NCBI GenBank assembly: GCA_964016885.1
Contig: CAXHJY010000556.1
Span: 1 to 57,497 of the forward strand
Source of the DNA: Eledone cirrhosa
Lineage: Eukaryota
Direction: 5' to 3'
DNA: 57,497 bases
In this document: positions 15,097-56,000 of the stretch, in pieces
Layout of the letters: the number at the start of each line of letters is the position of its first letter
How positions within the stretch are numbered: the stretch's first letter is position 1
Program-made: the position numbers and the translations under genes
The notes under the pieces: model-generated
Told to the model about the DNA's origin: nothing
The model's input: the letters and a program-made list of their open reading frames with translations, nothing else
Databases searched by the model: none

Positions 15097-15167
15097 TATT
15101 TTATTATGCGCATTTCAAAAACAAATATCATCATGCAATAATATTTGCGTTTTCGTCAGATAAAATA
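15097..15167 (-). ncRNA. Type I hammerhead ribozyme, family C
   Basis: tattttat-CTGACGA-[13 of 14 bp stem II]-GAA-ATGCGCAT-A-ataaaata: perfect 8-bp stem I and palindromic stem III. Confidence 0.85.
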
Positions 15168-15414
15168 GGGAGACATGATATGAAGGTTAAAACACACTTG
15201 TGAATAGTGCAGTTTTAAATCAACATATCCGATATCTTATATCCGATATCTTAAATCAACATATCCGATATCTGCATTGCTTTATTGTACTACAATAAAA
15301 CTCACCTCCTACATATATATATATATATAGGGTGTTACATAAGGTGTATACACACCTTAAAAGCATTCTAATCAACGTGTGTATACATTTGTGGGGTACA
15401 CCTTGTATATATTG

Positions 15415-15710
15415 AGGATTGCAACGTCTTCATAGATGATTGCTGTCTCTTATTGATTCTTCGTTATCATCCCATCTGCGTCCATAACTTCGTAGATGAC
15501 TTTGTAGGCCAGCTGTCGATCACACAGGTGACAGAAGAGAGTTGTGCTTTCCACAGGACCGGTGGGGGTCACCTTGCGGGACACAATCTTTATGTACCAC
15601 CATGTGTGTTTTTTTTTAGTTCTGAACTAGTTCTACACACTTTGTTTCATATCACGCACGTTGTTTCGCCAGGTCTTTGTTGAGTGGTGTTTCAGGTGGT
15701 TATCTTTCCA
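15415..15710 (-). mobile_element. Degenerate RTE 3' fragment with C2H2 finger remnant
   Basis: FCHLCDR / AGLQSHLRS in shifted minus frames. Confidence 0.55.
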
Positions 15711-15787
15711 TGTACATACATATATACATATATACATACATGATGGCTGCAATCATGTATATACATATATACATATATATATATACA

Positions 15788-16395
15788 TGATGGCTGCCAA
15801 CTCGTTTTCGAGTACGGCCACTACTTTATATCCATGTAGGAGAACCCCTACCGATGCGCTGAACGAGTGTGACTTTTTAGTCCAGCCAGGGACTTGAAAA
15901 CTCTGGTACAAACACTACACTTGTGACAATTATTGACACATAGTGCTGGGCCCATGGTACCATGTGACGACAAGTGCAGAGAGATCTCCAGATATAAAGC
16001 AATGCCTGTGCCGTGAAGCTTTTATAGTGAGCAAAGGCACTGCACAAAGCCAGTCCCACTCTCTTAACCAAGATGATATTTACCAAAAAGAAGAACAAGT
16101 CAACATCATTGGATACCATCAGGGTTGCAGGTGTTATATCAGAGTTTTCCTTCTCCTAGAATTCTGCCTTGACAAAGGCTAAGGGGTCATCTCTCCCGTA
16201 TACATATATACATATATACATATATACATATATACATATATACATACATGATGGCTGCAAACTCTAAGAGTATTGCAATCGCTTGTCAAATTACAAAAAA
16301 TTATGCACATTTAGGCTACGGCCAGCCACCCGAACCTGTAACATATCCTTAACAAGCAATACCTGTGTTTTGAAGGTGTTTAAGTGGAGAAAGGC
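15788..16395 (-). mobile_element. Two truncated bipartite RTE-derived elements (15788-16195, 16248-16395)
   Basis: Similar to 6781-7103 and 5308-5460 respectively. Confidence 0.8.
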
Positions 16396-16542
16396 GTTCT
16401 GAGTTCAAATCCCGCCGAGGTTAACTTTGCCTTTCATCCTTAACGGGGTCGATAAAATAAAGTACCAGTAATGTACTGGGTTCGATTTAATCGACTTTCC
16501 CCATCTCCCAAATTGGTGGCCTTGTGCCTATAGTAGAAATCA

Positions 16543-51410: not shown

Positions 51411-51488
51411 ATGTTTGTTTGTTTGTTTATCAACTTATTTATTTTGGAACGTGTTGATAGACGTTAAGAGAAAAATATTTGCTAGTTT

Positions 51489-51501
51489 GTTGCCAGGCAA
51501 C
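51489..51501. promoter_or_regulatory. RFX X-box-like palindrome GTTGCCAGGCAAC
   Basis: Fits GTNRCC-N0-3-RGYAAC within a unique island; no linked gene identified. Confidence 0.25.
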
Positions 51502-52384
51502 GATGGAGTTCCTTGCCCCAAGAAGATAAAACGAGGCAGTTTATGGCGAACATGAGCTGCACATAGTGTAAACTATACTACACACACACGCGCACACACA
51601 CACACACACACACATATATATATATATGTATACATACTCACATACTCACATACACGCAGATATATATATATATATATATATATATATATATATATATACA
51701 TACAGACATACATCTACATTGAAAATTTTAGTAAGTTAATTTTTTTAATTTTTTTTATAATTTTCTTATTTTACGTCTTTTATATATATATATATATATA
51801 TATATATATATACACCCACACACTCACACGCCTATAAACACACACCACGTATACATACTCACATACACACAGACATATACACAGGCATACACGTACATAT
51901 ATATATATATATATATATACACACATACACACACGCATGAACACATTTATATGCACATACATACACACATTAACATATATTCATATATATGCATGTATAT
52001 ACGTCTATATACATCTGTGTGTGTATATATATGTATATATATATATATATGCGTGTATGTGTGTGTAAGTATGTATGTATGTATGTATGTATGTATGTAT
52101 GTATATATGTATATATCTATTATGTTTGAAATCAGTCAACAAGGGAAAATAACATAACGATAGAATACAACGATAATGTATTAGTTTAACACTTGAAATA
52201 GTTGGAAAATGTTTTATAGTTTCGGTTGCTATTCCTTCATCGGAAAGTAGAATGGGTGAAAGAGTACACAAGAAATATGTAGTTTGACGCGAGCAAGAAA
52301 CAAAGAAATAAAACAGCACAATGGTAGATAGAAGATACATCAAATGCTGTAGTATATATATAGGGGTGCATGTAGTATATATAG

Positions 52385-52557
52385 TGATACAGCTTGGCAC
52401 CAGTGACGTCACAACTCCTTTCTTCAGCTGAGTGGAATGAAGCCACGTGAAGTAAAGTGTCCTTGCTCAAGGACACAACTCAACACCCGGTACAGGAATC
52501 GAACTCACAACCTGGCGATTCTAAGCCCAAAGCTCTAACCACTAAGCCATGCTCCTT
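52385..52557 (-). mobile_element. tRNA-derived SINE
   Basis: Minus: tggcttagtggttag (A box), gagttcgattcc (B box), gtgtccttgagcaaggacact. Confidence 0.8.
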
Positions 52558-53019
52558 CATCACCACAAAACAACAACAACAACAGCAACAACAAAAACAA
52601 CTTCAGTGCCAATGTCTCCACCACTATCATAAACTAGAGCACTACCTTCACCACAGTCACCACCATCACCACCACCACCATCACCACCACCATCACCACC
52701 AACACCATCACCAACCCATCACCACCACCACCATCACCACCATCATCAAGGCCATCACCACTAACTTCACCACCATCACCACCACCAACATAATCACCAC
52801 CAACATAATCACCACCATCAGCAAGAGCACCAGTCACAAGGTTAAAAACTAACAACAACAACAACAACAACAACGTTGAAGGTAATCCGTTGTCACGTGA
52901 CCACCACCACTACCGCCACACAGCGGCAATAATCTGTTCAATACTTGTGAATATCGAATTAACATCGCAGGTAACACAGGTAAGATCAAATATTTGTGTT
53001 AAGTAATATAATTCTTGTT

Positions 53020-56000
53020 TGTAAGTGTGTGTATATATGTGTATGTATGTATATATATATATATATGTATATATATATGTGTATATATATATGTATGTGT
53101 GTATATATATGTATATATATATATATATATATATATATGTATATATGTATATATATATATATATGTATATATATATATATATGTATATATGTATATATAT
53201 ATATATATGTGAATATATATATGTATATATGTATATATATATATATATGTGAATATATATGTATATATATGTATATATATATATGTATATATATGTATAT
53301 ATATGTATATATATATGTATATATATATATGTATATATATGTATATATATATGTATATATATATATGTATATATATATATGCGTATATATATGTATATAT
53401 ATATGTGTGTGTATATATATGTGTATATATAAGTATATATATGTGTATGTATCAGTAAATATATGTGTATATATAAGTATATATATGTGTATATATATGT
53501 GTGTGTATATATATGTGTATATATATGTGTGTATATATAAGTATATATATGTGTGTATATATGTGTGTATATATATGTGTATATATAAGTATATATATAT
53601 GTGTGTATATATGAGGATATATATGTATATATAAGTATATATATGTATATATAAGTATATATATATATGTATATATAAGTGTATATATGTATATATATAT
53701 ATGCGTATATATATGTATATATATATGTGTGTATATATATGTATATATATATAAGTATATATATGTGTATATATATATATATATATATACGTATATATAT
53801 GTGTATATATATGTATATATATATATGTATATATATATATGTGTATATAAGTATATATATGTATATATAAGTATATATATGTATATATAAGTATATATAT
53901 GTATATATAAGTATATATATGTATATATAAGTATATATATGTATATATAAGTATATATATGTATATATAAGTATATATGTGTATATATATGTATATATAT
54001 ATATGTGTATATAAGTATATATATGTATATATAAGTATATATGTGTATATATATGATATATATATATGTGTATATAAGTATATATATGTATATATAAGTA
54101 TATATATGTATATATAAGTATATGTATATATAAGTATATATATGTATATATAAGTATATATATATGTATATATAAGTATATATATATGTATATATAAGTA
54201 TATATATATGTATATATAAGTATGTATATGTATATATATAAGTATATATATATGTATATATAAGTATATATATATGTATATATAAGTATATATATATATG
54301 TATATATAAGTATATATATGTATATATAAGTATATATATATGTATATATAAGTATATATATGTATATATAAGTATATATATATGTATATATAAGTATATA
54401 TATATGTATATATAAGTGTATATATGTATATATAAGTATATATATATGTATATATAAGTGTATATATGTATATATATATGTATATATAAGTGTATATATG
54501 TATATATAAGTATATATATATGTATATATAAGTATATATATGTATATATAAGTATATATATATGTATATATAAGTATATATATATGTATATATAAGTATA
54601 TATATATGTATATATAAGTATATATATATGTATATATAAGTATATATATATGTATATATAAGTATATATATGTATATATATGTATATATAAGTATATATA
54701 AGTATATATATGTATATATATGTATATATAAGTATATATATGTATATATATGTATATATAAGTATATATATGTATATATAAGTATATATATATATATATA
54801 TATATATATATAAGTATATAAGTATATATATATATATATATATAAGTATATATATATATATATATATATATATATATATATAAGTATATATATATATATA
54901 TATAAGTATATATATATATATATAAGTATATATATATATATATATATATAAGTATATATATATATATATATATATATAAGTATATATATATATGTATATA
55001 TATATATATATAAGTATATATATATATGTATATATATATATGTATATATATGTATATATATATATATATATAAGTATATATATATATATATATATATATA
55101 TATAAGTAGATATATGTATATATATATATATATATATAAGTATATATATGTATATATATATATATATATATAAGTAGATATATGTATATATATATATATA
55201 TATATAAGTATATATATGTATATATATATATATATATATAAGTATATATATGTATAAATATATATATATATATATATATATAAGTATATATATATATATA
55301 TATATATATATATATATATATATTCAAAATATTAATAAATATAGACATTCATGTAATCAAATATATATTATATATATTTCGGAGGTACTGAGCTATTTCA
55401 ACAGTACGTGCTCATCAGATAAAATATATAAATTGATGTATGACCTACATCAAATATGCTGATGGTTCAATTCCAGTCTTGGCATAGATTAATCGATGAA
55501 ATATATTCATTGATTAATCAATGAAACTTGTTTAACTTTTCGTTATATATATGTATATATATATATGTATGTATGTATGTATATATATATATATATGTAT
55601 GTATATATATATGTATGTATATATATATATATATGTATGTATGTATATATATATATATATGTATGTATATATATATGTATGTATATATATATATGTATGT
55701 ATGTATATATATATATATATGTATGTATGTATGTATATATATATATATATATGTATGTATGTATATATATATATGTATGTATGTATGTATGTATGTATAT
55801 GTATGTATGTATGTATGTATGTATGTATGTATGTATGTATGTATGTATGTATGTATGTATGTATGATGTATGTATGTATGTATGTATGTATGTATGTATA
55901 TATATATGTATGTATATATATATGTATGTATATATATATGTATGTATGTATATATATATGTATGTATGTATATATATATGTATGTATGTATATATATATG

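What the first reader, a model, noticed from the sequence alone, without database searches (positions are those of the whole stretch)
15097..55426. Family C hammerheads covary across five copies and share an AUA cleavage site
Copies at 15097-, 36690-, 40724+, 50713- and 55362- share the frame (t)attttat-CTGANGA...GAA-ATnnnnAT-A-ata(aaata), with the 40724 copy mutated. Their stem II sequences differ widely yet still pair, and stem III stays palindromic or nearly so (ATGCGCAT, ATATGTAT, ATATATAT). Structure kept despite sequence change points to selection on the RNA fold. In two copies stem III is itself (AT)4, the same sequence as the microsatellite they sit in.
Basis: partly seen in the sequence, partly recalled or inferred. 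Interest (0 to 1): 0.75.

Follow-up and report, generated by a model that had tools for sequence, protein, structure and literature searches.

The report
Hammerhead ends of Hydra-type Penelope retroelements
The five motifs are the ends of truncated Penelope-type jumping genes from four protein-coding families; their predicted self-cutting RNA fold occurs about 75,000 times in this animal genome and is kept across families, yet almost no copy ends at the predicted cut site, so the element is likely copied from RNA that is whole across that site.

Summary
The five hammerhead frames are at the stated places. Three pass a strict pairing scan; 40724 (CUA, not AUA) and also 55362 (3-bp stem I) are damaged. 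They are not one small RNA family: each is the 3' pseudo-LTR end of a 5'-truncated Penelope-like retroelement in (TA)n. They come from four autonomous families whose RT plus C-terminal GIY-YIG proteins carry the Hydra-clade motifs. Two patterns each give about 75,000 genomic matches, reversed controls 0. Covariation holds across 54 distinct types (97.7% of cells pair, six pairs with two-sided change), but rests on few lineage events. Inserted copies decay at the core as fast as elsewhere, so selection acts during transposition. The microsatellite idea fails as a main route: 102 copies run into (TA)n at the cut site against 75,314 that keep stem I; sampled copies end about 55 or 140-150 nt further 3'. 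Hammerheads in Penelope and Hydra elements are published. New here: AUA site, loop-less 8-nt palindrome, long stem II with a fixed C-Y mismatch, and the copy number. Cleavage was not tested. This scan reported other Penelope-linked hammerhead repeats elsewhere in this genome.

The parts
15097..15167 (-). Type I hammerhead of family F15097; core from 15159, stem II 36 nt, stem III ATGCGCAT, predicted cut after A15105 (AUA); intact
15048..15228 (-). 3' pLTR arm of a 5'-truncated F15097 element, 94-96% like loci that hold the protein frame
   Evidence: against L380, L376
15259..15314 (+). Inverted 'tail' of the same element at the other end, next to a TA run
36690..36755 (-). Type I hammerhead of family F36690; stem III ATATGTAT, predicted cut after A36698 (AUA); one private change in distal stem II
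36555..36972 (-). F36690 arm: end of 3' UTR, pLTR and full tail up to a TA run
   Evidence: against L374
36971..37039 (+). Inverted 5'-truncated piece of the same pLTR, running into (TA)n
40724..40789 (+). Hammerhead of an F36690 subfamily; damaged (CUA, one stem III pair lost); position 17 at 40781
40684..40832 (+). 149-bp pLTR fragment between two TA runs; the 39 next-best main matches are 98-99% identical
50712..50772 (-). Hammerhead of family F50713; stem III ATATATAT, predicted cut after A50720 (AUA)
50669..50833 (-). F50713 pLTR arm ending in a long TA array
   Evidence: against L180
50825..51001 (+). Inverted arm with tail of the same F50713 insertion
55361..55426 (-). Hammerhead of family F55362; stem III ATATATAT, position 17 at 55369 (AUA); damaged in stem I and stem II
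55325..55493 (-). F55362 pLTR arm inside the 53026-57497 TA-rich array; inverted tail piece at about 55506-55545
   Evidence: against L177, L181

Best explanation
The five motifs are the hammerhead-bearing 3' ends of 5'-truncated Penelope-like retroelements from four protein-coding families, likely of the Hydra clade, sitting in (TA)n; they are predicted to cut after AUA only when two copies pair through the palindromic stem III or a protein helps, and they were likely inserted from RNA that was whole across that site. Shown: linkage to RT plus C-terminal GIY-YIG frames, tandem hammerhead-frame-hammerhead copies, inverted 5' arms, two fixed right ends, TA targets, pairing kept between lineages, neutral decay after insertion. 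Inferred: the element's nuclease nicks (TA)n, reverse transcription starts inside the RNA about 50-58 or 139-152 nt 3' of the cut site and crosses the ribozyme first, so every truncated copy carries one. Inferred: cleavage is slow or conditional and acts at another step (trimming tandem or read-through transcripts), which keeps the fold under selection in active lineages only.
For: Frames 1.0-1.4 kb upstream of each hammerhead type: F36690, F15097, F50713 and F55362 (3' UTR shared by two loci each). Tandem pLTRs in L369 (3,018 bp apart), L374 (4,367 bp) and L375. Motifs DKT, CxCx5C, CxxC..E..N..CxH match the Hydra definition in PMC8557442. TA run within about 160 nt 3' in 94 of 99 sites against 546 of 2000 control windows. 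53 of 99 have an inverted twin. Right ends cluster: 34 of 73 at +58 and 19 of 73 at +152; 35 of 56 at +56 and 11 of 56 at +138 to +141. 102 matches end at the cut site against 75,314. Pairing. Rare changes core against flank: 13/384 against 122/5164 and 7/432 against 61/5680; none of 20 shared variants is in the core. In another clade, RT starts at two internal sites, uses uncut RNA, and the hammerhead needs the protein (PMC11167929).
Against: No cleavage, RNA or protein data here. No tree against named clade references; RWK reads RWR or RWI and full copies exceed the usual 3 kb. Pfam names no domain in the frame. In isolation the lowest-energy fold of each 61-71-nt motif is 4.5-9.5 kcal/mol below the hammerhead fold, and the (AT)4 and ATATGTAT dimer helices are weak (-3.2, -2.2 kcal/mol). 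The first stem II pair is A-U in 77 of 99, G-U in 15, A-C in 7, G-C in 0. Two-sided changes trace to few events on the flank tree (3 to 11 state changes per pair).
Confidence: 0.8

Rival explanations
1. The ribozymes cut efficiently at both pLTRs, the unit RNA is ligated into a circle, and reverse transcription of the circle crosses the re-joined AUA site. The genomic ends would look the same.
For: Tandem same-strand hammerheads flank the frame; the circle model is proposed in PMC4209133; copies always cross the site.
Against: Units are 3-4.4 kb; no multimeric arrays of these pLTRs were seen in the loci examined (10 of 99 have a same-strand neighbour of like type); PMC11167929 found uncut RNA the main template and no reads ending at the site.
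Confidence: 0.15
2. Cleavage leaves an RNA end in (AU)n that anneals to nicked (TA)n and primes insertion (the reading suggested by the reader's last sentence).
For: 102 genomic matches run from stem III straight into (TA)n; most listed ones have the (AT)4 stem, and most of 30 inspected do not resume the element.
Against: That is 0.14% of 75,314; at least 6 of the 30 inspected are TA expansions or nested insertions in stem III; the GC-bearing ATGCGCAT lineage is the commonest type in the sample (34 of 99).
Confidence: 0.04
3. A non-autonomous retrozyme or a host-functional small RNA family, with each copy kept by selection.
For: Window copies are short (about 150-490 bp) and code for nothing.
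Against: 5' ends vary and extend into protein frames; no tandem monomers; the core decays at the flank rate after insertion, 11 of 32 and 4 of 36 copies have a core change.
Confidence: 0.04
4. The fold is kept as a binding platform for the element's protein and cleavage is vestigial.
For: Weak features: AUA was the slowest of four triplets in a viroid hammerhead (PMC1636495 abstract), no G10.1-C11.1 in 99 sites, weak helix III, template crosses the site.
Against: No shared variant touches the 12 core positions in two families found through flanking queries; N7, the free position, varies; stem III stays self-complementary in 95 of 99.
Confidence: 0.12

Closest known systems
Hydra clade of Penelope-like elements, including Hydra-1_Obim (Craig et al. 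2021, PMC8557442; seen: passages, section 11, supplement part 2 of 59 and search hits)
   Same: Single RT plus C-terminal GIY-YIG frame, DKT, CxCx5C linker, CxxC and CxH around E and N, 3' hammerhead, (TA)n targets.
   Different: All 26 Hydra rows of its File S2 have stem III starting AC and a GU-H site; these start AU and end AUA with no loop. Stem II is 26-36 nt here. RWK reads RWR or RWI. 3' UTR 1.0-1.4 kb, element over 3 kb. The listed Hydra-1_Obim hammerhead is a different one.
Minimal and palindromic-helix-III hammerheads of metazoan PLEs (Cervera and de la Pena 2014, PMC4209133; seen: parts 1-2 of 4)
   Same: Type I, in pLTRs, mostly single truncated copies, covarying families, palindromic 15.2-16.2, proposed dimer, inverted pairs.
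   Different: No extra base between 9 and 10.1, no G10.1-C11.1 in the sample, 8-bp stem I, fixed C-Y mismatch in stem II; about 75,000 matches against about 4,000 and 9,000 reported there for coelacanth and Xenopus.
Poseidon element of Anolis, PAc (Frangieh et al. 2024, PMC11167929; seen: parts 1-2 of 4 and passages)
   Same: Two fixed right ends 3' of the hammerhead (the tail), AT-rich targets, template whole across the cut site.
   Different: Other clade; there the frame starts inside the hammerhead, here about 190-210 nt 3' of the cut; the tail is about 85-95 nt rather than 30-40; right ends here fall at short AT runs that could pair with the target.
Metazoan non-LTR retrozymes (PMC7229834, passages; bioRxiv 10.64898/2026.07.22.740005, part 1 of 5 and passages)
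   Same: Type I hammerheads at very high copy number (up to 120,000 in axolotl), linked to PLE pLTRs.
   Different: These are truncated ends of autonomous elements, not tandem 150-450-bp non-coding monomers.
Eggplant latent viroid (+) hammerhead (PMC1636495; seen: abstract and outline)
   Same: Natural AUA site that cleaves.
   Different: Viroid RNA, not a retroelement; there AUA was the slowest of four triplets tested.

Membership tests
Type I hammerhead ribozyme | Core CUGANGA, GAAA, UH with helices I, II, III in type I order | tested here: met
   3 of 5 window copies pass; family forms of all five do; pairing 97.7% in 54 types
Type I hammerhead ribozyme | Self-cleavage after H17 | not testable with these tools
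   No RNA run listed; no assay
Type I hammerhead ribozyme | Match to an Rfam hammerhead model | tested here: not met
   No match at gathering score
Metazoan PLE min-HHR consensus (PMC4209133) | Palindromic positions around stem III | tested here: met
   68 of 99 strict, 95 of 99 with G-U
Metazoan PLE min-HHR consensus (PMC4209133) | G10.1-C11.1 pair and an extra base between 9 and 10.1 | tested here: not met
   A-U 77, G-U 15, A-C 7, G-C 0 of 99, directly after A9; G-C occurs in the F55362 family
EN+ Penelope-like element | Single frame with RT and GIY-YIG nuclease | tested here: met
   743- and 771-aa open frames with YRDD-type and IVY...YVG motifs, read by motif; Pfam gave no family
EN+ Penelope-like element | pLTRs in tandem, inverted 5'-truncated arm, optional tail | tested here: met
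Hydra clade | DKT in place of DKG | tested here: met
   SDKT in F36690 and F15097; region not recovered for the other two
Hydra clade | CxCx5C linker; CxxC and CxH around conserved E and N; no CCHH | tested here: met
   Linker in all four families; CxxC and CxH clear in F36690, F15097, F50713, frameshifted in F55362 copies; one Cys only between the GIY and YIG halves
Hydra clade | N-terminal RWK motif | tested here: inconclusive
   RWR in F36690 (also RWH, RWQ in single copies), RWI in F15097, aligned to RWK of P0002-P0004
Hydra clade | (TA)n insertion and 3' hammerhead | tested here: met
   94 of 99, control 546 of 2000
Hydra clade | Generally shorter than 3 kb | tested here: not met
   pLTR to pLTR 3,018 bp (UTR partly deleted) and 4,367 bp; the paper says 'generally'
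Hydra clade | Placement in an RT tree with named clade members; no IFD | not tested
   No named references held; only a by-eye comparison with supplement rows
Non-LTR retrozyme | Non-coding tandem monomers of 150-450 bp | tested here: not met
   Copies extend into protein frames; no monomer arrays at the five sites

The most novel reading that the evidence does not exclude
The loop-less 8-nt palindrome is a family-specific pairing code: two RNAs (or two pLTRs) of one family form an 8-bp helix III and cut each other after AUA, ATGCGCAT and ATATATAT lineages cannot cross-pair, and the fixed C-Y mismatch in stem II is the protein or tertiary contact that times cleavage to after reverse transcription has passed. 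That would give Penelope hammerheads a role as a dimer checkpoint, with about 75,000 potential trans partners in one genome.
Probability: 0.12. Interest if true: 0.7.

Novelty: new variant of a known kind. Interest (0 to 1): 0.35.

Why it matters
What Penelope hammerheads do is open: they are kept, yet one in vitro study found them dispensable for insertion. These families give genomic support from a second clade: the fold is kept between lineages while 99.9% of matched copies were made from RNA whole across the site. They also supply natural variants (three palindromes, several stem II lengths) and open protein frames for a direct test of dimer and protein-assisted cleavage. The finding itself is an expected feature of a described clade, so it is moderate.

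Tried and rejected
Rfam scans gave only microsatellite-driven miRNA matches. Pfam named no domain. A search with L010:2750-3150 hit an unrelated repeat upstream of the element and was dropped. One search had an off-by-one in stem I and counted 113 rows from overlapping loci; one search replaces it with 99 unique sites (1 of the 100 listed was not fetched). An ADAR route for the A-U to G-U changes was tried: single-copy A>G was not above T>C on the sense strand in two 3' UTR sets (35 against 70, 14 against 32), so no support. A single 'family C' was rejected: 3' UTRs of five lineages share only the last 37-130 nt, and F15097 shares nothing at E 1e-3. R-scape is not available; stand in for it and are not a significance test under phylogeny. 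Paper searches: hammerhead ribozyme + Penelope + octopus, hammerhead + Penelope-like + microsatellite + non-autonomous (19), + palindromic + helix III (27), hammerhead + ribozyme + octopus (63), octopus + Penelope (64), AUA triplet, pLTR tail (89); none listed a paper on these families. Repbase and Dfam could not be searched, 58 of 59 parts of the Craig supplement were seen only as search hits, and bioRxiv supplements are closed, so the families may already have entries there.
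Full report
Observation. The window is a whole contig (C583) of a 3.0-Gb genome, rich in TA microsatellites. The five frames are present. Position 17 lies at 15105, 36698, 40781, 50720 and 55369. A strict type I scan passes three of them, against 0.11 on average and 2 at most in 100 local shuffles. Compared with their best genomic matches, 40724 has lost AUA (CUA; 29 of 30 counted matches keep it) and 55362 has a C-C in stem II and a 3-bp stem I. So two copies are damaged, and AUA is in four of five. Rfam has no match at gathering score.

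What they belong to. Each copy is a young repeat: first-look candidates 1303, 1523, 2258, 2020 and 577, of which 40 were scored per search, with best matches at 81-99%. Loci show variable 5' ends, inverted 5' arms, a tail at one end and TA runs. [quoted passage not shown] L369, L374 and L375 hold two same-strand hammerheads around the frame, and L371 holds a 743-aa open frame. The 15097 type has its own frame (771 aa in L380, 53% identical to L371). The 50713 and 55362 types have frames 59% and 48-69% identical in pieces, with 3' UTRs shared by two loci each. Between families only the last 37-130 nt align. So the five copies are four autonomous families; 40724 is a subfamily of 36690.

Clade. 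The proteins show SDKT, a CxCx5C linker, and CxxC..E..N..CxH, with no CCHH. These, with (TA)n targets and a 3' hammerhead, define the Hydra clade in PMC8557442. Its supplement lists an octopus member with a different hammerhead. RWK reads RWR or RWI here, the elements are longer than usual, and no tree with named references was made, so membership is likely, not proven. A protein search gave 59 relatives at 31-42% identity, nearly all unnamed; one is named from Octopus bimaculoides. I did not determine the species.

Number. A pattern fixing stem I, the core and AT-NNNN-AT-A has 37,854 plus 37,460 exact matches, reversed control 0 and 0. A second pattern fixing stem II instead has 37,507 plus 37,264, control 0. 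Matches are not insertions: 53 of 99 sampled sites have an inverted twin.

Covariation. I fetched 99 of the first 100 listed matches (first 10 Mb of C1). Positions the pattern left free: stem II pairs 1-3 pair in 92, 98, 98 of 99; position 4 never pairs (C-C 58, C-U 39); pairs 5-7 pair in 94, 99, 94; the inner stem III pairs in 96 and 98. On 54 distinct types, 97.7% of 972 cells pair, and six pairs have two-sided changes (four in stem II, two in stem III); cells with two-sided change 98 against 33 in shuffles, and slid controls reach 61% paired at most. The count of pairs with a two-sided change is not above shuffles (168 of 500). Stem I varies only by wobble, but the pattern fixed most of it; a related type in L177 has a G/C-rich stem I that still pairs. 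On a tree from flanks alone, each pair changes state 3 to 11 times, so the evidence is a few lineage events, not 54 independent ones.

Where selection acts. In copies found through UTR, frame or upstream queries, rare changes hit the 12 core positions at 13/384 and 7/432, the rest at 122/5164 and 61/5680; 11 of 32 and 4 of 36 copies have a core change; none of 20 variants shared by more than two copies is in the core. Inserted copies decay neutrally; transposing lineages keep the fold.

The microsatellite idea. If cleavage gave an (AU)n end that primed on (TA)n, copies would stop at the site. Only 53 plus 49 do, 0.14% of the first count; at least 6 of 30 inspected are expansions or nested insertions. 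Copies instead end at two sites: 34 of 73 at +58 and 19 of 73 at +152 in F36690; 35 of 56 at +56 and 11 of 56 at +138 to +141 in F15097 (the values include a few bases shared with the TA run). A TA run follows within about 160 nt in 94 of 99 sites against 546 of 2000 control windows.

Mechanism. Shown: anatomy, ends, targets, pairing, decay. Inferred: the nuclease nicks (TA)n; RT starts at one of two internal sites 3' of the ribozyme and crosses it first, which is why every stub has one. The template must be uncut or re-ligated. For a Poseidon element, PMC11167929 shows two internal starts, uncut RNA as the main template and protein-assisted cleavage, which favours uncut RNA. An 8-nt palindrome has no room for a loop; as a dimer it gives 8 bp at -10.5 (ATGCGCAT), -3.2 (ATATATAT) or -2.2 kcal/mol (ATATGTAT), and alone each motif prefers another fold. 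Dimer action of such motifs is proposed and shown weakly in vitro in PMC4209133. AUA cleaves in a viroid hammerhead but slowest of four triplets (abstract). All this points to a slow, conditional ribozyme acting outside the insertion step.

Novelty. Hammerheads in PLE pLTRs, their covarying families, palindromic helix III and the Hydra clade are published. Different from the 26 listed Hydra rows and the min-HHR consensus: AUA, a loop-less AU-started palindrome, a 26-36-nt stem II with a fixed C-Y mismatch, and mostly A-U at 10.1-11.1. My eight paper searches listed no account of these families; an Octopus vulgaris repeat paper has no passage with 'hammerhead' or 'Hydra' (word search). Repbase and Dfam were not available. 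Earlier scan notes describe other Penelope-linked hammerhead repeats in this genome and none like this sequence. Verdict: a real feature, a new variant of a known kind, interest 0.35.

Noticed in passing
window 39129-39152 (-) and 41549-41572 (+): Two copies of a short hammerhead-like core with a small stem II, next to a repeat whose 41595-41767 part is a long hairpin around a TA run.
   Followed up: no
window 14785-14807 (+) and 41895-41917 (-): Two related CTGATGA...GAAA cores in short TA-flanked repeats; another probable Penelope end.
   Followed up: no
window 40550-40571 (+): Short hammerhead-like core in an 80-bp insert between TA runs, just before the 40724 copy.
   Followed up: no
window 7416-9698 (+): Frameshifted non-LTR retrotransposon frame with RT and C-terminal CCHC-like motifs, R4/Dong-like by recall.
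   Followed up: no
window 34903-35599 (+): Mariner-like transposase fragments, named by recall.
   Followed up: no
L177:7058-7143, L184:6581, L371:5693, L374:1309: A related hammerhead with the (AT)4 stem and AUA site but a G/C-rich 5-bp stem I: a two-sided change in stem I and a further lineage.
   Followed up: partly
L269-L293, L381, L382: A lineage with stem II starting AGGC, absent from the window, is very common in the sample and has its own frame, 65-67% identical to L371.
   Followed up: partly
all 99 sampled sites, stem II position 4: A C-C or C-U mismatch is kept in 97 of 99 while pairs on both sides covary; its role is unexplained.
   Followed up: partly
L373:3603-5435 and L031 upstream part: Other Penelope-like frames, about 40% identical or more distant, nested in the same TA sites; at least ten further hammerhead types occur in the fetched loci.
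   Followed up: no
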